Shown one piece after another: positions 6,851 to 60,049 of a DNA stretch of 64,000 nucleotides. Each line of letters starts with the position of its first letter. Positions within the stretch are counted from its first letter, which is position 1. The notes below the pieces were generated by a model. It saw nothing but the letters and a program-made list of their open reading frames with translations. It searched no databases and was not told the DNA's origin. A program made the position numbers and the translations under genes. The DNA comes from Bacillota bacterium (GTDB lineage: Bacteria > Bacillota > Clostridia > Peptostreptococcales > Anaerovoracaceae), in assembly GCA_030526355.1 (NCBI GenBank), contig JAUNDC010000009.1, positions 1,226-65,225 of the forward strand, in the 5' to 3' direction.

Positions 6851-6898
6851 AAAAACGTGTAAATATTAGAGGTATTGAACTTTTTTTACACATTTTTT
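6851..6898 (+). terminator. Intrinsic terminator with a long loop
   Basis: AAAAACGTGTAAA (6851-6863) pairs with TTTACACATTTTT (~6885-6898) with one mismatch. The loop is ~20 nt and a T-tract follows. It lies 50 nt after the VWA gene stop. Confidence 0.5.
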
Positions 6899-19281: not shown

Positions 19282-19590
19282 CTGCACCAGGAGGCATCAG
19301 GATAATGATTTTCGACGTGTTTAACATTTCTGAGCATAGGCACGTCGAAAAACAACATCAGAGCCAAAGAAAATGAATATATTTTCGACGTGACATAGCT
19401 GATTTTACCTCGACACGTCGAAAACAACAGCACAGTTACTGCACCAGGAGGCATCAGGATGATAATTTTCGACGTGTTTAACATTTCTGGGCATAGGCAC
19501 GTCGAAAAACAACATCAGAGCCAAAGAAAACGAATATATTTTCGACGTGACATAGCTGATTTTACCTCAACACGTCGAAAAAACAATTGT
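19282..19590. repeat. Hairpin array, family A (4 units; a 157-bp segment duplicated in tandem)
   Basis: TTTTCGACGTG at 19309, 19382, 19466 and 19539, each paired with CACGTCGAAAA exactly 32 nt downstream (21-nt loops). Unit spacing is 73, 84 and 73 bp. Segments 19282-19438 and 19439-19590 are near-identical. Confidence 0.9.
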
Positions 19591-19731: not shown

Positions 19732-19878
19732 ATGGAAAGAATCAAGACACTCGATACTCGTAACTTATGTGAAAGTTCTAAAAATGGTGGCTGCGGCGAA
19801 TGCCAGACTTCATGTCAGTCAGCTTGCAAAACAAGCTGCGGTGTAGCAAACCAGCCATGTGAAAAGACAGAAGAATAA
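19732..19878 (+). CDS. scfA: SCIFF (six-cysteines-in-forty-five) ranthipeptide precursor
   Basis: MERIKTLDTRNL..GGCGECQTSCQSACKTSCGVANQPCE, the hallmark GGCGECQTSCQSACKTSC core. 48 aa with an SD 5 nt upstream. Confidence 0.9.
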   Translation: MERIKTLDTRNLCESSKNGGCGECQTSCQSACKTSCGVANQPCEKTEE

Positions 19879-19995: not shown

Positions 19996-21372
19996 ATGGT
20001 TCATCAGTATAAATTAAACGGATACAACATCGTGCTGGACACATGCTCCGGCTCTATTCATGTAGTGGATGAAGTCGCTTACGACATTATCGAAATGTTC
20101 AACAGCAAGTCTGCAGACGAAATCGTATCGGAAATGCTCACAAAATACGCCAATCACGGCGATGTGACCGAAGAGGAGCTCAGGCTCTGCATAGAAGATG
20201 TTCAATCTCTCATCGATGCCGGAAAGCTCTACTCAGAGGATACCTTCGCAGACGCTGCAGGCGTTTTCAAGGAACGCTCAGGAAACATCATCAAAGCACT
20301 CTGTCTCCACGTTTCACACACCTGCAATCTCAACTGTTCCTACTGCTTTGCAAGTCAGGGAAAATACCACGGGGATCAGGCCCTCATGAGCCTTGAGGTC
20401 GGAAAACGCGCGCTAGACTTTCTCATCGAGAATTCAGGCAGCCGCAGGAATCTGGAGGTGGATTTCTTCGGCGGCGAACCGCTTATGAACTGGGATGTCG
20501 TAAAGGAGCTTGTGGCATATGCCAGAGAGCAGGAAAAGGCACACGATAAGAATTTCAGATTTACGCTGACAACAAACGGAGTTCTGATCGATGATGATGT
20601 TATCGATTTTGCCAACCGTGAAATGAGCAACGTCGTCCTCAGCCTGGACGGAAGAAAGGAAATCCATGACCTTACCCGCGTGGACTTCGCCGGAAACGGC
20701 AGCTATGACAAAGTAGTTCCTAAATTCAAAGAGATAGTTGAGGCCCGCGGTGGCAAGAATTATTACATGCGCGGCACTTTTACACACGCCAACCCTGATT
20801 TCACAAAAGATGTCTTCCATATGGCAGAGCTTGGTTTCACAGAGCTCAGCATGGAACCTGTCGTATGTGCACCTGACGACCCATCGGCACTGACTCCTGA
20901 AGATATTGAAATAGTCAAGGATCAGTATGAAATACTGGCTAAGGAGATGATAAAACGCCGCAAAGAAGGCAACCCGTTCACTTTCTATCACTATATGATC
21001 GACCTGACAAACGGACCATGCATCTACAAGAGAATTTCCGGATGTGGCTCCGGCACCGAGTACATGGCAGTAACTCCGTGGGGCGATCTGTATCCGTGTC
21101 ATCAGTTTGTGGGCGAGGAAAAGTACAAGCTGGGTGATGTGTGGAACGGTGTGACGAACGACGATATTCGTGAAGAATTCCGCAGCTGCAATGCGTACTC
21201 AAGGCCTGACTGTAAGGACTGCTGGGCGAAGCTTTACTGCTCCGGCGGCTGCGCGGCCAACGCTTATCATGCCAGCGGCTCCATTAAAGGCATTTATGAA
21301 CCAGGCTGTGAGCTTTTCAGAAAGCGTATGGAATGTGCTATTATGATTAAAGCGGCTGAGGCTGAAATGTAA
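19996..21372 (+). CDS. scfB: SCIFF radical-SAM/SPASM thioether maturase
   Basis: CNLNCSYCF radical-SAM cluster motif and a C-terminal Cys-rich SPASM region (CGSG..C..CxxCWAKLYCSGGC). Immediately downstream of scfA. Confidence 0.9.
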   Translation: MVHQYKLNGYNIVLDTCSGSIHVVDEVAYDIIEMFNSKSADEIVSEMLTKYANHGDVTEEELRLCIEDVQSLIDAGKLYSEDTFADAAGVFKERSGNIIKALCLHVSHTCNLNCSYCFASQGKYHGDQALMSLEVGKRALDFLIENSGSRRNLEVDFFGGEPLMNWDVVKELVAYAREQEKAHDKNFRFTLTTNGVLIDDDVIDFANREMSNVVLSLDGRKEIHDLTRVDFAGNGSYDKVVPKFKEIVEARGGKNYYMRGTFTHANPDFTKDVFHMAELGFTELSMEPVVCAPDDPSALTPEDIEIVKDQYEILAKEMIKRRKEGNPFTFYHYMIDLTNGPCIYKRISGCGSGTEYMAVTPWGDLYPCHQFVGEEKYKLGDVWNGVTNDDIREEFRSCNAYSRPDCKDCWAKLYCSGGCAANAYHASGSIKGIYEPGCELFRKRMECAIMIKAAEAEM

Positions 21373-23498: not shown

Positions 23499-23555
23499 CC
23501 CCTCATCCTTGTTGTTCCGATGAAAGTATCTGTTTCAATATGCTCAGACGCGCCA

Positions 23556-24187
23556 TTTCATCGGTAGATTGATGTAAATTAAGCGGTTACCGATGATATA
23601 GCAAACGTAGATAGATCACGAGCAGAAATATCATCGGTAAATAGGCATTTCAGAAGTGGTTACCGATGAAACCATTGTCATGGAGAACGTGATGGATTGC
23701 TGTTTCATCGGTAAATTGGTGCTTAAAAGGAGTTCCCCGATGAAAACAACTCCTGCCTAAGGTTCTGAAGCATTTTTTCATCGACAGATTTGTGTTTGGA
23801 GATCAGTTACCGATGACAATAGCCTTTCCGAGAAGCTTCGCTAACAAAATGTCATCGGAGAATTGGTGCACGAAGGGAGATTGCCGATGAAATCGGCGGC
23901 TCAGCAAACTTCAAAAGCAAAATTTCATCGGCAGATTGGTGCATGAAGAGCAGTTGCCGATGAAACCCACAGATTGCTGAATCTCAAACGCGCCGTTTCA
24001 TCGGAGAATTTATATTAGAGGCAGAGTTGCCGATGAAGTCAGCTGTTCTGCAATATTCAAAAAAATGAATTTCATCGGTAGATCTGTATTCGAGGAGCGG
24101 TTACCGATGACAACAGCCTTTCCGAGAAGCTTCGCTAACAAAATGTCATCGGTAGATTGATGTTTAGAGGCAGTTTACCGATGAAAA
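23556..24187 (+). repeat. Hairpin array, family B (9 units on a 73/74-bp lattice)
   Basis: TCATCGG at 23558, 23631, 23705, 23778 (TCATCGA), 23852, 23925, 23998, 24072 and 24146. CCGATGA lies exactly 32 nt after each. Loops share only the partial consensus ATTGGTG..AGRGGCAG. Spacers of 30-31 nt are unique except 23815-23850 ~ 24109-24144. No ORF of 60 aa or more. Confidence 0.95.
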
Positions 24188-24216: not shown

Positions 24217-24306
24217 CCCTTCAATTCCGCCAACTCAGCTAATTCCACCAAATTAACCAATCCCTCCAAATCAATCAATCCCGCCAACTCAGCCGATTCC
24301 GCCAAA
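24217..24306 (-). repeat. 18-bp tandem repeat x5 seeded on the last codons and stop of the transporter CDS
   Basis: Minus-strand units: TTTGGCGGAATCGGCTGA / GTTGGCGGGATTGATTGA / TTTGGAGGGATTGGTTAA / TTTGGTGGAATTAGCTGA / GTTGGCGGAATTGAAGGG. The first unit is the real C-terminus FGGIG*. Confidence 0.9.
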
Positions 24307-27294: not shown

Positions 27295-27337
27295 TTTTCG
27301 ACGTGTCGGGGCAAAATCAGCTGCTACATGTCGAAAA
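27295..27337 (-). repeat. Orphan family-A hairpin (inverted relative to the array copies)
   Basis: TTTTCGACGTG (27295-27305) and CATGTCGAAAA (27327-27337), again with a 32-nt offset. The loop matches the reverse complement of array units 2 and 4 at 16 of 21 positions, and the TATAT flank is shared. Confidence 0.85.
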
Positions 27338-38824: not shown

Positions 38825-38874
38825 AGAAGGAGCCTCACTCAACAACTGACAAGTTATCGGGCGAGGCTCCTTCT
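38825..38874. terminator. Bidirectional terminator with a 26-nt loop
   Basis: AGAAGGAGCCTC (38825-38836) pairs perfectly (12 bp) with GAGGCTCCTTCT (38863-38874). It lies between convergent hydA and the 181-aa gene. Confidence 0.55.
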
Positions 38875-56837: not shown

Positions 56838-56888
56838 AAAAAGAGCTTCAGGTATCAGTTGGTATAACAACCGAGCCTGAAGCTCTTT
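56838..56888 (-). terminator. Intrinsic terminator with a 23-nt loop
   Basis: AAAAAGAGCTTCAGG (56838-56852) pairs with CCTGAAGCTCTTT (56876-56888). The minus-strand U-tract follows. It lies after the DUF3793-like gene. Confidence 0.55.
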
Positions 56889-56949
56889 CTGTTCATCAGA
56901 AAAATAAGTATCTATAGGCGAAAATAGTATCTATGGGTAAAAATAGTAG

Positions 56950-57516
56950 CTATGGGCAAATTAGATTGCTTTTGACTGTAAGTGACGGAAGCTTTGCTCC
57001 CTTATCCAGCATTCTGCTGTAAATAGCCGTGCATTTGTCGTATTTCATAAATGTGCGTTTCGCCGCAGCTTCATTCGTGTACACTTTCCAGCATCCGACA
57101 TGCTTATAGTTTTTGCCTTTATTTACAATAAATGCTTTAACATCCTTAAACGGATATCCCAGAAAAACTCCTATTTCATGTGGAAATTCGCTGTACTCTC
57201 CAAGGCGCTCAGCCAGAATGTCAAGCATCCCTTCAATACTGCTGCAGTCGTACCCGCAGCTTTCCATAAACTGCCTCACACATATATCCTCCAGTGCCTT
57301 TGCCAGTTTCGCCTTCCTGTACACATATATTAGCGCCATGCCTCTGCTGAAGCGCAGCACTCTGATGTATACCCCTCTCTGATTCAGCTGTTTGTTCAAG
57401 CTTGCTGTGAAGCCGAACAGTTCGCTGCCGCAGCTGCATCTACAGCTGAACAAATTACCTGTTTTCATACCCGCAAGCGTCGGTGAACAGTGCGTTACTA
57501 TCATCTTTTCTGACAT
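56950..57516 (-). CDS. DUF3793-like protein
   Basis: MSEKMIVTHCSPTLAGMKTGNLFSC.. N-terminus is typical of the family (from memory). GAAGGAG SD. The track's GTG 57561 start is unlikely. Confidence 0.6.
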   Translation of the reverse strand: MSEKMIVTHCSPTLAGMKTGNLFSCRCSCGSELFGFTASLNKQLNQRGVYIRVLRFSRGMALIYVYRKAKLAKALEDICVRQFMESCGYDCSSIEGMLDILAERLGEYSEFPHEIGVFLGYPFKDVKAFIVNKGKNYKHVGCWKVYTNEAAAKRTFMKYDKCTAIYSRMLDKGAKLPSLTVKSNLICP

Positions 57517-57691: not shown

Positions 57692-57895
57692 CTTGGTTAG
57701 GAACAACTATTCATCTGTTTGGTTATGATTAACTAATCATTTGTTTGGTTAGGAGACCTAATCATTTGTTTGATTAGTGATAACTAACTCTGTACCAAAA
57801 AATTTTCCCCTGAGGGGTTTGGATTTTCATATATCAACTGAATCACCGTTTTGGTTAGTCTAGCGCTTTGGTTAGTTACTACTAACTCTATTGTA
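57692..57895 (+). repeat. Iteron-like direct repeats (TTTGGTTAG-N6-8-CTAAYY)
   Basis: TTTGGTTA-type motif at 57692, 57718, 57744 and 57769 (spacing 26, 26 and 25 bp), plus 57818 (degenerate), 57850 and 57867. Each unit contains a short TTAG/CTAA inverted repeat. Confidence 0.8.
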
Positions 57896-58145: not shown

Positions 58146-58189
58146 AAAAAAGTCGGCTATGCCTATTCTGTCAAGAGGTAGACTTTTTT
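58146..58189 (+). terminator. Orphan terminator-like long-loop hairpin
   Basis: AAAAAAGTC (58146-58154) pairs with GACTTTTTT (58181-58189) around a 26-nt loop. No convincing gene lies upstream. Confidence 0.35.
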
Positions 58190-58198
58190 GATATTCCA

Positions 58199-58221
58199 GA
58201 AATATCGCACAGCGATATTTC
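58199..58221. promoter_or_regulatory. Perfect 10-bp inverted repeat upstream of the GIY-YIG gene
   Basis: GAAATATCGC-ACA-GCGATATTTC, 53 nt upstream of ATG 58274. Confidence 0.4.
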
Positions 58222-58273
58222 CTTCATAATAAAAAATTATAGAAATAGGTAAGCGAAAGCAGAATCAACTGAA

Positions 58274-58651
58274 ATGAAATCAGCAAAAGACAAATCAATC
58301 GAAATAGAACCAACGAAAGATATTTCAACGGAAATAAAATCAGTGAAATCAGATGCGGCGGAGCCTGTAATTAGCATCACCCCCGGCACACCATGCGTGT
58401 ACATGCTTCTGTGTGATAATGGGTCTCTCTATACAGGCTGGACCAATGATTTCAACAAACGCTTCGCCGCTCACATGAATGGGCAGGGTGCTAAATATAC
58501 ACGAAGCCACAAACCAGTTAAACCCGCATATATCGAAATAATGCCGGATAAGTCGGCAGCTGTAAAGCGTGAAGCAGCAATAAAAAAACTTCCTGTCAAC
58601 AAAAAAAGGCAGCTGATAAGTACACCATCAAATATCATCTATTCTACCTGA
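58274..58651 (+). CDS. GIY-YIG nuclease-family protein (YhbQ/UPF0213-like) with a repeat-rich N-terminal extension
   Basis: CVYMLLCDNGSLYTGWTNDFNKRFAAHMNGQGAKYTRSHKPVKPAYIE..REAAIKKL (GIY..YTG..R..H..G..E core). The first ~40 aa (KSIEIEPTKDISTEIKSVKS) come from short DNA repeats. Confidence 0.8.
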   Translation: MKSAKDKSIEIEPTKDISTEIKSVKSDAAEPVISITPGTPCVYMLLCDNGSLYTGWTNDFNKRFAAHMNGQGAKYTRSHKPVKPAYIEIMPDKSAAVKREAAIKKLPVNKKRQLISTPSNIIYST

Positions 58652-58684: not shown

Positions 58685-59213
58685 GTTCAGGTGAATTCCA
58701 ATGGCTCGGTTTCTGATTCCCCGATATCTTTGCAAAATTGAGTTTCTACAATTTGGCGATTTCATCGGTAACTTCTTCCCTATGGAGTCTTTTCTACATA
58801 ACGACCGTCATCGGCAACCACACTCCAAGCACTAGTTTCCCGATGAAATTCTGCTGCTGAAGTTTTCTGGACTTTGAATTTCATCGGTAATCTTCACCAA
58901 CATTGCTTCTCGCCGGTGAAGCCTTCTTATTCCAAACATGCATCCAAACATGCAAGTCTCCAAATATGTTTATGTAATCTATCATTTGGAGACTTTTGGC
59001 TGTTTTCGGTGTGATTTGAACTTGATATTCTCCAAAAAGTCTCCCTAAAAGATATATTTGGAGACTTTATTGCCAATATATGTATAATGCTGGGAAATAG
59101 TCTCCAAATCATGGTTCTGAAGTGTAATATTGGAGACTTGCATCGCAAAATATCCTTCAATATACCTAAAAGTCTCCAACCAATGCCATCACGGCAAAGA
59201 TTTGGAGACTTTT
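58685..59213 (+). repeat. Composite hairpin array: family-B arms switch to family-C arms on one ~73-bp lattice
   Basis: 5' arms start at ~58685 (degenerate), 58760, 58806 and 58879 (TCATCGG type), then 58954, 59027, 59099 and 59171 (AGTCTCCAAAT type, partner ATTTGGAGACT ~30 nt downstream). From 58806 the steps are 73, 75, 73, 72 and 72 bp. Confidence 0.85.
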
Positions 59214-59261
59214 CATTTTAGCGAGCCCGTCTGATTAGTTCGCCGATCTAACAAATTCGGT

Positions 59262-59428
59262 CTGGGCAAATTGCCCGACTGACAGGTTAACAAATTCGGC
59301 CTGCGCAAATTATCGGTCTAACAGGTTAACAGATTCTGTCTGCGTTAATTGTCAATCTGACAGATTGAACCTGCGTAATTGTCCGCCCGACAGTTCCGAC
59401 ATGCGTTAATTACCAGCCTGTGTTAATT
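59262..59428. repeat. Degenerate tandem repeat (CTGCGYWAATT motif x6) running into the 3' end of the next CDS
   Basis: The motif occurs at 59262, 59301, 59340, 59371, 59401 and 59418 (spacing 39, 39, 31, 30 and 17). The last copy contains stop codon 59423-59425 of the minus-strand gene. Confidence 0.7.
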
Positions 59429-60049
59429 TCTTGCCTGCATCAGAAGCAGCTTGTGCACTTCTGCTGATGAGGTTCCGAACTTTTTCACATCCATTCCAAG
59501 TACCTGAGTGGCAGCGGCTGCGTCAACTGCTCCAGTAACAGACTCTTCCGGAGAACCCTCGGATTCAGCCGGACACGACCACTCAACCTTATTGATTTCC
59601 ACAATAAGAGCCAGCATCTGCTGAGCATATATTTCCATGTTATTGTTAAATGTTTCCTGTTCGCTTTTCTTCACCGGATTTTTCATCTCAATAAAAAGCT
59701 TGCAATTTTCACCTGTTCCTGTAATTTTCACTGAGTATTTGCCTGCAAAAGCCTCTAGCTTCATAGCATCAAGCAGCTTGACAACCGAAGCCGTATCATT
59801 GACATCGCTGACCTTTCGATCATAGAGAACCACTGAATTCTGATCCGAGCAGTCCACCAGCACCGGCTCCAGGCTGCTCCGCCAGCTGGAGCCTGAAGCC
59901 ACAGAGTCTCCGGAGTCCACAGATTCTCCAGAGGCTGTAGTGTCTCCGGAGGCTGCAGACGCTTCCGACTGATTATTCACAGGCATTACAGCAAAAGCGA
60001 CTGCCAGAATTATCACCGCAGACAACGCTGCAAAAATCAGCATTTTCAT
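59423..60049 (-). CDS. Membrane-anchored secreted protein, DUF4825-like
   Basis: N-terminal TM/signal anchor (MLIFAALSAVIILAVAFAV), a Ser/Gly/Asp low-complexity linker, and a C-terminal ..VLYDRKVSDVNDTASVVKLLDAM..AQQMLALIVEINKVEW that resembles DUF4825 (from memory). The start is uncertain (60049, 60043 or 60088). Confidence 0.45.
   Translation of the reverse strand: MKMLIFAALSAVIILAVAFAVMPVNNQSEASAASGDTTASGESVDSGDSVASGSSWRSSLEPVLVDCSDQNSVVLYDRKVSDVNDTASVVKLLDAMKLEAFAGKYSVKITGTGENCKLFIEMKNPVKKSEQETFNNNMEIYAQQMLALIVEINKVEWSCPAESEGSPEESVTGAVDAAAATQVLGMDVKKFGTSSAEVHKLLLMQARN

What the first reader, a model, noticed from the sequence alone, without database searches (positions are those of the whole stretch)
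58685..59213. One continuous ~73-bp lattice in which the hairpin arm sequence switches family mid-array
**Seen directly**
- Downstream of the GIY-YIG gene, units with family-B arms start at 58806 (TCATCGGCAA...TTTCCCGATGA) and 58879 (TTTCATCGGTAA...GCCGGTGAA, degenerate).
- Four units with an unrelated arm pair follow directly: AGTCTCCAAAT/ATTTGGAGACT at 58954, 59027, 59099 and 59171.
- The steps are 73, 75, 73, 72 and 72 bp.
- Two more degenerate B units (about 58685 and 58760) lie upstream. The second is 46 bp out of phase.
- Each hairpin spans about 42-43 nt in families A, B and C, although the arm sequences share nothing.

**Interpretation**
Keeping geometry while replacing sequence argues that unit architecture is what gets copied or selected, not a particular binding word. 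For example, units could be added at a fixed distance from the previous hairpin, as with elements that insert next to a hairpin target. I do not know of a described element class with this behaviour.
Basis: partly seen in the sequence, partly recalled or inferred. Interest (0 to 1): 0.82.

Follow-up and report, generated by a model that had tools for sequence, protein, structure and literature searches.

The report
Palindromic repeat lattice between convergent genes
The 73-bp lattice of inverted repeats is real and is one of several non-coding palindromic repeat arrays in an uncultured Clostridia genus; it resembles the REP/BIME repeats of other bacteria and changes by recombination between its arms, not by adding units at its ends.

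Summary
Right-hand arms lie at 58838, 58911, 58984, 59056, 59128 and 59200 (steps 73, 73, 72, 72, 72), so the arm sequence switches from family B (TCATCGG/CCGATGA) to family C (GTCTCC/GGAGAC) without leaving register. Independent assemblies and three relatives carry the same structure.

The window is an ordinary Clostridia chromosome. It also holds a 10-unit B array (23515-24186), a family-A array (19309-19581) and a solitary A unit (27295).

- **Conservation:** only the arms and the spacing are conserved. Interiors are no more alike than shuffled sequence.
- **Spacing:** the B core-to-core distance is 31 nt in 22 of 22 units.
- **Relatives:** the B array has 0, 3, 5 or 10 units through internal deletions, a block duplication and arm-bounded conversion. 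None of the differences seen is a unit added at an array end.
- **Pairing in B:** each reverse arm covaries with the next forward arm across the ~30-nt segment, not across the 21-nt "loop".

I read these as REP/BIME-like palindromic mosaic repeats in a lineage where none is described. No defining REP feature is met, so it is an analogue, not a member. Function is unproven. The rigid geometry is still unexplained.

The parts
58719..58729 (+). degenerate family-B reverse-type arm CCCCGATATCT, 41 nt before the next forward arm
58760..58770 (+). family-B forward arm TTTCATCGGTA of a truncated unit (no reverse partner; causes the 46-bp off-phase step)
   Evidence: this unit and the next are deleted in L152
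58806..58848 (+). family-B unit CGTCATCGGCA N21 TCCCGATGAAA
   Evidence: the right arm is TGCCGATGAAA in L131, which restores the pairing
58840..58887 (+). family-B hairpin across the long segment: CCGATGAAATTC N24 GAATTTCATCGG (12 bp perfect, 18 nt at 89%)
   Evidence: (I1)
58879..58921 (+). degenerate family-B unit TTTCATCGGTA N21 CGCCGGTGAAG
58931..58954 (+). 12-bp perfect direct duplication TCCAAACATGCA x2 abutting the first C arm; shares TCCAAA(C/T)ATG with it
   Evidence: D11
58955..58994 (+). family-C unit 1: AGTCTCCAAAT N18 ATTTGGAGACT (12-bp stem from 58954 to 58995), followed by TTTT
   Evidence: (I8)
59027..59066 (+). family-C unit 2: left arm mutated (ATTCTCCAAAA), intact as AGTCTCCAAAA in L131 and L152; an alternative left arm AAAGTCTCC at 59036-59044 pairs with 59060-59068
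   Evidence: (I2, I14)
59099..59138 (+). family-C unit 3: AGTCTCCAAAT N18 TATTGGAGACT
59168..59213 (+). family-C unit 4: AAAAGTCTCCAA N22 TTGGAGACTTTT (12-bp stem with A/T-tract flanks, terminator-like in both directions)
   Evidence: (I9)
59249..59365 (+). 39-bp tandem repeat, 3 copies, directly after the C array; 2 copies in L131 and L152
   Evidence: (D1)
23515..24186 (+). main family-B array: about 10 units, arms alternating in orientation at 32 and 41-42 nt start-to-start, between convergent Na+/H+ antiporter and SNF symporter genes
19309..19581 (+). family-A array: 4 units TTTTCGACGTG N21 CACGTCGAAAA as two 157-bp copies, upstream of the SCIFF operon; absent from related species
27295..27337 (+). 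solitary family-A unit TTTTCGACGTG N21 CATGTCGAAAA with an unrelated interior

Best explanation
**What it is.** The region holds two abutting arrays of non-coding palindromic units: a decayed family-B array and a four-unit family-C array. They belong to a genus-specific population of REP/BIME-like mosaic repeats. The window also carries families A and B at other loci.

**Anatomy.** Each unit is a short sequence-conserved inverted repeat: 11-12-nt arms, with a 7-nt invariant core in B. The arms enclose unconserved DNA of fixed length. Arms alternate in orientation with two alternating spacings, which sum to 72-74 bp.

**Shown.**
- Arrays change by recombination or slippage between arms: unit deletion, block duplication and arm-bounded conversion.
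- Whole arrays are present in some relatives and absent in others.
- Neighbouring arms covary as base-paired partners.

**Inferred.**
- The arms act by pairing in single-stranded nucleic acid. The most likely setting is stem-loops in the 3' untranslated transcripts of the convergent flanking genes, acting as terminator, insulator or 3'-end protection, as proposed for REPs.
- Some trans-acting factor reads the arms and their spacing, and this keeps both constant.
- The B-to-C register would follow if C units arose inside, or were converted into, an existing B lattice. This step is the least supported.
For: - **Conservation pattern.** Arms are conserved and interiors are not. Spacing is invariant.
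- **Covariation in B.** Reverse arm with the next forward arm scores 0.193 against 0.119 +/- 0.016 in shuffles (0 of 500 reach it), and every slid version scores far lower. The alternative pairing is worse than shuffles.
- **Arm changes between relatives.** One arm change is pair-restoring (TCCC to TGCC in L131), and C unit 2 has two different hairpin solutions in different lineages.
- **Minisatellite behaviour at the same locus.** Relatives have 0, 3, 5 or 10 units. Indels are flanked by CAGAATTTCATCGG. 23806-23859 nearly equals 24100-24153, although the flanking linkers differ.
- **Dispersal.** A and B each occur at two loci within 64 kb. The A array is missing from two related species.
- **Position.** The B and B/C arrays lie between convergent genes with no canonical terminator. 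L155 has an ordinary 20-bp-stem terminator where relatives carry the B array. C stems are followed by T runs.
- **Stability.** Predicted stem-loops are far more stable than shuffles, z = -3 to -6.
- **Precedent.** REP doublets with less-conserved spacers, several families in one genome and ordered mixed-family tandem arrays are described in PMC3116915. A preference for convergent intergenic regions is described in PMC3733652.
Against: - Pairing alone explains neither the invariant 7-nt core nor the exact 31-nt spacing across unrelated interiors.
- There is no G.T over A.C bias that would point to a transcribed strand.
- Arms took three uncompensated hits in the C orthologues. Their recent substitution rate is not significantly below that of interiors (3/73 against 11/150, p = 0.56).
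- The A array sits upstream of an operon, not in a 3' region.
- Interiors of 18-31 nt are unusually long for terminators or REPs.
- No transposase, recombinase or other candidate partner gene lies in the 64 kb.
- Genome-wide copy number is unknown. Family C is seen at this locus only.
Confidence: 0.45

Rival explanations
1. **Double-stranded DNA protein-binding lattice.** Each arm is a half-site for a sequence-specific dimeric or oligomeric protein, with one paralogue or specificity per family. Spacings of about 31-32 and 41-43 nt (3 and 4 helical turns; 73 = 7 turns) put all sites on one face. The protein would then coat or wrap the intergenic DNA, like a centromere, an iteron array or a BIME-gyrase/IHF site.
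For: - The 7-nt core is invariant in 48 arms from four genomes.
- The 31-nt core spacing holds in 22 of 22 B units, even where the 21-nt interiors are unrelated. The 29/43 spacing in C is equally rigid.
- Interiors are at shuffled identity. Conserved geometry without conserved sequence is what paralogous DNA-binding proteins would give.
- The period is close to 7 x 10.5 bp.
Against: - Covariation between a reverse arm and the next forward arm is not expected for half-site recognition.
- Half-sites three turns apart are unusual for a simple dimer.
- No candidate gene is linked to any array.
- Arrays are dispensable: relatives have 0 to 10 units.
- The motifs are not enriched as single sites elsewhere in the window.
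Confidence: 0.22
2. **Hairpin-guided mobile or ruler-built element.** Units are added or exchanged by an enzyme such as an HUH/Y1 transposase or a recombinase. It recognises a hairpin and acts at a fixed distance from it, so architecture is copied while arm and interior sequences can differ.
For: - Geometry is rigid while interiors are unrelated, as if units were born with non-homologous interiors.
- An arm-bounded 54-nt cassette was copied within the B array.
- The A array is a lineage-specific block of about 375 bp flanked by ATTAGGTT-like direct repeats.
- An unrelated 86-bp element has also inserted nearby, so small non-coding DNA does move in this genus.
- REPINs insert next to existing REPINs (PMC3116915).
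Against: - None of the differences among L131, L152, L134-L143, L154 and L155 is a unit added at an array end. All are deletions, duplications or conversions that short arm homology can explain.
- The C array is static at four units.
- No transposase or recombinase lies in the 64 kb.
- Units within a family do not share interiors, as copies of a master element would.
Confidence: 0.1
3. **Neutral local accident.** A terminator-like hairpin next to a decaying B minisatellite was tandemly duplicated. The 72-bp period and the in-register junction are coincidence, and the arms persist only by templated correction of near-palindromes.
For: - Family C is found only at this locus in all sequence available.
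- These genomes are rich in other intergenic tandem repeats with periods of 12, 18, 19, 24, 26 and 39 bp, some varying in copy number.
- A 12-bp duplication sharing TCCAAA abuts the first C arm.
- Recent substitution rates in arms and interiors do not differ significantly.
- The chance of an in-register junction is only about 4-10% by my estimate, which is not extreme.
Against: - After a duplication, arms and interiors should diverge together. Instead the interiors are randomised, the arms are 83-91% alike and the spacing is exact.
- The same geometry recurs in unrelated families A and B at other loci.
- The C array is conserved with four units in three relatives.
Confidence: 0.12
4. **Functional structured RNA array.** The array is transcribed as one RNA whose repeated hairpins bind or sequester a protein, or are processed into units, as in Csr/Rsm-type sponges, type III antitoxin repeats or CRISPR-like precursors.
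For: - Repeated stable hairpins have conserved stems and free loops.
- There is stem covariation.
- B units begin GTTTC and end GAAAC and are separated by 30-31-nt unrelated segments, which is superficially CRISPR-like.
Against: - No Rfam family matches at gathering score, and only chance-level hits appear at E <= 10.
- No dedicated promoter or terminator frames the arrays.
- No cas or toxin gene is nearby.
- The variable segments match nothing in phage or plasmid collections.
- There is no G.U strand bias.
- 'Repeat' interiors are only about 65% alike in B and unrelated in A and C.
Confidence: 0.08

Closest known systems
REP sequences and BIMEs (bacterial interspersed mosaic elements) of Enterobacteria and Pseudomonas
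   Same: - Extragenic, and favoured between convergent genes.
- Conserved palindromic elements alternate in orientation with two alternating spacer classes.
- They cluster in arrays of up to about a dozen.
- One genome can hold several families.
- Arrays vary between strains.
   Different: - Here each arm is an 11-12-nt non-palindromic word that forms a palindrome only with a neighbour 18-31 nt away.
- There is no unpaired GTAG or CGTC tag.
- The interiors are unrelated.
- The host is a Clostridia lineage.
- No RAYT is known for it.
REPINs and REPIN/REP tandem clusters of Pseudomonas fluorescens SBW25 (PMC3116915)
   Same: - Two inverted conserved elements flank a less-conserved spacer and form a hairpin.
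- Next-neighbour distances are sharply peaked (71 bp for GI).
- Three families occur in one genome.
- There are ordered tandem arrays, including mixed GI-GIII arrays with fixed 112/72-bp spacings.
   Different: - REPIN copies share their spacer as recent copies of a master sequence, and they are linked to RAYT genes.
- Here the interiors are at random similarity, the family switch is a one-time junction rather than an alternation, and no transposase is seen.
Neisserial intergenic mosaic elements (dRS3 repeats flanking variable RS units; dRS3 = CGTC-1 in PMC3733652)
   Same: - Short conserved inverted-repeat words bound variable interior segments.
- They are organised in large clusters.
- The words act as recombination anchors, allowing cassette-like exchange.
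   Different: - From my own knowledge, NIME interiors are 50-150 bp, belong to recognisable families and vary in spacing.
- Here the interiors are 18-31 nt and the spacing is exact.
CRISPR arrays
   Same: - Segments of constant length (43-45 nt with GTTTC...GAAAC ends in family B) alternate with unrelated 30-31-nt segments.
- The period is about 73 bp.
   Different: - The 'repeats' are conserved only at their ends.
- There are three unrelated families within 64 kb and no cas genes.
- No protospacer matches were found.
- Relatives show no polar growth.

Membership tests
REP / BIME | Each repeat is itself a 20-40-nt imperfect palindrome with a short loop | tested here: not met
   Arms are 11-12-nt non-palindromic words. 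Palindromy exists only between neighbouring arms 18-31 nt apart.
REP / BIME | Conserved unpaired GTAG or CGTC tag at one end (PMC3733652) | tested here: not met
   No GTAG flanks any arm. CGTC occurs only inside the paired family-A arm CACGTCGAAAA.
REP / BIME | Alternating orientation with two alternating spacer classes, in extragenic clusters | tested here: met
   32/41-42 nt in A and B, 29/43 nt in C. All arrays are intergenic.
REP / BIME | High copy number dispersed around the genome | tested here: inconclusive
   A and B occur at two loci each within 64 kb. C occurs at one locus. The genome-collection scan was saturated by chance hits before it reached this organism.
REPIN-RAYT system | A cognate RAYT (Y1 transposase) gene flanked by the repeats | not testable with these tools
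   None lies in the 64-kb window or in 5 kb beyond it. The rest of the genome could not be read.
REPIN-RAYT system | Copies share arms and spacer, as recent copies of a master sequence | tested here: not met
   Interiors are at shuffled-level identity (0.47-0.53 against 0.48-0.50), while arms are 0.83-1.00.
CRISPR array | Near-identical direct repeats, cas genes nearby, spacers matching mobile elements | tested here: not met
   - Repeat interiors are 65% alike in B and unrelated in A and C.
- There are no cas domains.
- There are no phage or plasmid matches.
Integron cassette array (attC sites) | R''/R' core sites (RYYYAAC / GTTRRRY) and an intI gene | tested here: not met
   The arms and their flanks hold no such cores. 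No integrase lies in the window (Pfam calls).
Type III toxin-antitoxin antitoxin repeats | Tandem direct RNA repeats directly upstream of a ToxN/AbiQ-type gene | tested here: not met
   The neighbours are a GIY-YIG gene and a convergent DUF4825 gene. There is no Rfam match.
Minisatellite / VNTR | Head-to-tail units whose number varies among strains by unequal exchange or slippage | tested here: met
   - The orthologous B array has 0, 3, 5 or 10 units, with indels bounded by arms.
- L152 has an 85-bp unit deletion.
- Tandem Repeats Finder does not report the B and C arrays, because only the arms are alike.
Iteron / centromere-type protein-binding array | Short invariant word repeated in helical phase, with a cognate binding-protein gene | tested here: inconclusive
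   The word and the phasing are met: a 7-nt invariant core and a 72-74-bp period of about 7 turns. No cognate gene was identified.

The most novel reading that the evidence does not exclude
The arrays are products of, or substrates for, an undescribed structure-guided mechanism in Clostridia. An enzyme or nucleoprotein 'ruler' would recognise an inverted-repeat pair and fix interior lengths at about 21 and 30 nt. It could exchange or install arm-bounded cassettes. Unrelated arm families would then converge on one 73-bp architecture and could continue each other's lattice. That would be a new class of repeat element defined by geometry rather than sequence.
Probability: 0.12. Interest if true: 0.8.

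Novelty: new variant of a known kind. Interest (0 to 1): 0.42.

Why it matters
- **A gap in what is described.** In the papers I read, REP-type repeats are described mainly in Proteobacteria and a few other phyla (PMC3733652 does not mention Firmicutes). My searches found no such system in gut or rumen Clostridia. A set of palindromic mosaic repeats there would extend that biology.
- **Practical use.** The arrays vary in unit number and could serve as strain markers.
- **An open question made testable.** What keeps extragenic palindromic repeats constant? Here the 7-nt core and the exact spacing survive while everything between them has randomised. That separates constraint on geometry from constraint on sequence unusually cleanly.
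- **If a ruler-like enzyme or a phased DNA-binding protein is responsible,** it would be a new component of chromosome organisation or of small-element mobility.
- **If not,** the finding is an ordinary hairpin-bearing minisatellite.

Tried and rejected
- **Phage or plasmid origin.** No megablast or blastn match for the locus or the arrays.
- **Known RNA family.** Nothing at gathering score in the whole window, and only chance-level hits at E <= 10. There are no tRNAs.
- **Metagenome scans.** Two family-B patterns gave nothing, or only CRISPR and coding chance hits.
- **Viral scans.** The family-C pattern gave ten isolated hairpins next to tRNAs or inside genes, with no arrays. Family A gave none.
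- **Common ancestry of A, B and C.** Alignment scores do not exceed those of shuffles. A shared ACAACAGC after some A and B arms is not significant overall.
- **Strand of a putative RNA.** G.T against A.C counts show no bias.
- **Purifying selection on C arms in orthologues.** Not significant.
- **Loops as decayed inner stems of long palindromes.** True for the L155 terminator but not for the A, B or C interiors.
- **Coding potential.** The period is not a multiple of three, and no ORF is conserved across relatives.
- **Integron, type III antitoxin, Spo0A-box and parS resemblances.** I considered these from memory. They either failed on defining features or could not be tested.
- **Acetatifactor locus L014.** It has clustered CATCG inverted repeats but no regular lattice.

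Full report
**1. The observation**

- **Family B arms:**
  - 58760: forward arm with no partner.
  - 58806/58838: a forward and reverse pair.
  - 58879/58911: a pair whose reverse arm is degenerate (CGCCGGTGAAG).
  - 58719: a degenerate reverse-type arm.
- **Family C arms:** 58955/58984, 59027/59056, 59099/59128 and 59171/59200.
- **Register:** on an 11+21+11+30 grid the right-hand arms fall at 58838, 58911, 58984, 59056, 59128 and 59200. The steps are 73, 73, 72, 72, 72, so the lattice continues through the change of arm sequence.
- **Chance:** such patterns never occur in shuffles of the window.
- **Assembly:** a Logan assembly of another run is identical over the array. It differs from the window only by one copy of a 19-bp repeat 2 kb away. 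Three further assemblies carry the same four C units. This is not an assembly artefact.

**2. Context**

The window is an ordinary chromosome segment of an uncultured Clostridia-class bacterium.

- NCBI names the source 'MAG: Bacillota bacterium'.
- It encodes transporters, two-component kinases, an FeFe hydrogenase, molybdenum-cofactor genes and a SCIFF peptide with its radical-SAM maturase.
- Pfam finds no transposase, integrase or cas domain in any sizeable ORF.
- The B/C array lies between the 3' ends of a small GIY-YIG gene (58274-58651, + strand) and a DUF4825 gene (59423-60043, - strand).

The same window holds three more elements of this kind:

| Element | Coordinates | Setting |
|---|---|---|
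| Family-B array, about 10 units | 23515-24186 | between convergent transporter genes |
| Family-A array, TTTTCGACGTG N21 CACGTCGAAAA, 4 units as two 157-bp copies | 19309-19581 | upstream of the SCIFF operon |
| Solitary family-A unit | 27295-27337 | between an aminotransferase gene and an NMN transporter gene, both on the - strand |

**3. What is conserved**

- **Arms against interiors.** Among units of one family, arms are 83-100% identical. The enclosed and intervening segments are no more alike than shuffled sequence (0.47-0.53 against 0.48-0.50). The exception is the 21-nt segment of the main B array, at 0.65 against 0.53.
- **No shared ancestry detected.** Families A, B and C show no similarity to one another beyond chance.
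- **Spacing is exact.**
  - In B the forward-core to reverse-core distance is 31 nt in 22 of 22 units from four genomes. This includes units whose 21-nt interiors are unrelated. The reverse-to-forward distance is 42-43 nt.
  - In A the start-to-start distance is 32 nt in 5 of 5 units.
  - In C the distances are 29 and 43 nt in every case.
- **Invariant core.** TCATCGG/CCGATGA is unchanged in all 48 B arms aligned.
- **My inference.** The interiors are saturated with substitutions, or were never homologous, yet they have accepted essentially no indels. So either the geometry is under constraint or it is fixed when a unit is made.

**4. Which arms pair**

- In family B, complementarity is longer between a reverse arm and the next forward arm, across the ~30-nt segment. 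There it reaches 12-13 bp, with variants such as GATAT/ATATC, GAC/GTC, AAAC/GTTT and AAATTC/GAATTT. It is shorter across the 21-nt segment.
- I tested this on 16 distinct arm triplets.
  - The 'long-segment' pairing gives a covariation score of 0.193 against 0.119 +/- 0.016 in shuffles (0 of 500 reach it). All slid controls score far lower.
  - Some rows are orthologues, so the number of independent events is small, roughly two to four.
- G.T and A.C mismatches are equally common, so nothing indicates a transcribed strand.
- For A and C both pairings are equally good.
- C has the A/T polarity of B's long-segment hairpin (stem-AAA ... TTT-stem). Only the 72-73-bp sum is strictly shared with B.

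**5. Relatives**

*C locus*

| Locus | Relation to the window | What it shows |
|---|---|---|
| L131 | 93% identical across this region | same four C units |
| L152 | 97% identical DUF3793 protein | same four C units |

- **Changes within the C array:**
  - Three single uncompensated arm hits in different lineages.
  - One pair-restoring arm change.
  - A shifted alternative stem in unit 2.
  - Partial conversion of the unit 1 loop by unit 3 in L152.
  - An 85-bp deletion of two B units in L152.
  - Copy-number change in the adjacent 39-bp repeat.
- **Rates:** arm and interior substitution rates do not differ significantly (3/73 against 11/150).
- **Distant relatives:** L133 and L153 have no array at this position.

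*B locus*

| Loci | B units |
|---|---|
| window | about 10 |
| L138 | 5 |
| L134-L137, L139 | 3 |
| L140-L143, L154 | 3 |
| L155 | 0, with an ordinary 20-bp-stem terminator in its place |

- These species share about 90% nucleotide identity with the window in the neighbouring genes.
- L138 differs from L134 by exactly two internal units, bounded by CAGAATTTCATCGG.
- In the window, 23806-23859 and 24100-24153 are near-identical copies bounded by arms, while the linkers around them differ.

*A locus*

- The A array is absent from both related species. It appears as a block of about 375 bp flanked by ATTAGGTT-like direct repeats.

None of the differences seen is the addition of a unit at an array end.

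**6. Searches elsewhere**

| Search | Result |
|---|---|
| Rfam | no family |
| Phage and plasmid collections | no match to the arrays or their variable segments |
| 5 kb beyond the window | no further array |

**7. Interpretation**

- **Closest described things.**
  - *REP/BIME mosaics:* alternating orientation, two spacer classes, a preference for convergent intergenic regions.
  - *REPINs and their clusters:* inverted conserved elements around a less-conserved spacer, sharp next-neighbour distances such as 71 bp, three families in one genome, and ordered mixed GI-GIII arrays (PMC3116915).
  - *Clustered neisserial dRS3 repeats:* PMC3733652.
- **Membership fails.** The defining features of those families are not met. 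The arms are not palindromic on their own, there is no GTAG or CGTC tag, no RAYT is seen and interiors are not shared. I file this as an analogue, not a member.
- **Best reading (0.45).** These are genus-specific palindromic mosaic repeats that rearrange through their arms. They probably act as stem-loops in the 3' regions of convergent genes, with some factor reading the arms and the spacing.
  - No canonical terminator is predicted in either convergent interval.
  - L155 has an ordinary terminator at the same spot.
  - C stems carry T runs.
- **Main rival (0.22).** A phased double-stranded-DNA binding lattice explains the invariant core and the exact 3+4-turn spacing better. It does not explain the covariation.
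- **Other rivals.** A neutral local accident for family C (0.12) and a functional RNA array (0.08) remain possible.

**8. The B-to-C register**

- By my estimate the chance of an in-register junction is 4-10%, depending on which landmark is used.
- Together with the near-equal period, this suggests that C arose within, or was converted into, an existing lattice. I could not show how.
- A 12-bp duplication sharing TCCAAA with the first C arm abuts the junction. That hints at local slippage.

**9. Verdict**

This is a real, reproducible and conserved structure. It is a new variant of a known kind of bacterial repeat. The unexplained part is the rigid geometry with randomised interiors, which is worth a genome-wide follow-up.

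Noticed in passing
window 58149-58234: An 86-bp segment (AAGTCGG...GGAAATATCGCACAGCGATATTTCC...) is present upstream of the GIY-YIG gene but absent at the same spot in L131. Close copies lie just downstream of the B array in L134-L143 and L154. It looks like a small mobile or recombining non-coding module with two hairpins.
   Followed up: partly
window 19732-19878 and 19996-21372: A SCIFF (six cysteines in forty-five residues) precursor peptide gene with its radical-SAM/SPASM maturase. The family-A array sits about 150 bp upstream of the likely promoter.
   Followed up: partly
window 56900-56960: A 19-bp tandem repeat (3.2 copies) has one more copy in the otherwise identical Logan assembly L001. 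It is the only difference in 8.4 kb.
   Followed up: yes
window 57693-57787; L131 7140-7330; L153 3760-3900: 26-bp repeats carrying TTGGTTAG lie upstream of the DUF3793 gene. GGTTAG...CTAAC motifs recur upstream of the orthologues, including a distant one, which suggests a conserved operator.
   Followed up: no
window 59249-59435: A 39-bp tandem repeat (3 copies, then degenerate 30- and 17-bp relatives) fills the space between the C array and the DUF4825 stop codon. L131 and L152 have 2 copies.
   Followed up: partly
window 38825-38874, 56840-56888, 6851-6897; L154 640-690 and 4566-4608: Solitary hairpins with perfect or near-perfect 11-14-nt arms and 21-26-nt interiors sit at gene ends, each with its own arm sequence. 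The one at 56840 is conserved in L131. The long-interior geometry is therefore not confined to the arrays.
   Followed up: partly
window 58263-58343: A 30-bp repeat (2.7 copies) lies inside the 5' part of the GIY-YIG ORF and encodes a repetitive lysine/glutamate-rich N-terminus. A more distant relative (L153) has a 98-aa GIY-YIG gene in a different position.
   Followed up: no
window 24222-24306: An 18-bp repeat (4.7 copies, CAATTCCGCCAAATCAAC) overlaps the 3' end of the SNF symporter ORF and lengthens it (462 aa against 445 aa in relatives).
   Followed up: no
L014 2950-3250 (Acetatifactor sp. MAG): An irregular cluster of inverted repeats with a shared CATCG core but varying arms and 12-22-nt interiors lies upstream of a GntR-family gene. 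It may be a looser relative of the same phenomenon in another Clostridia lineage.
   Followed up: partly
L155 5641-5685: Where relatives carry the family-B array, this strain has a conventional terminator with a stem of about 20 bp. Its maturase protein is identical to that of L154, which does carry the array.
   Followed up: yes
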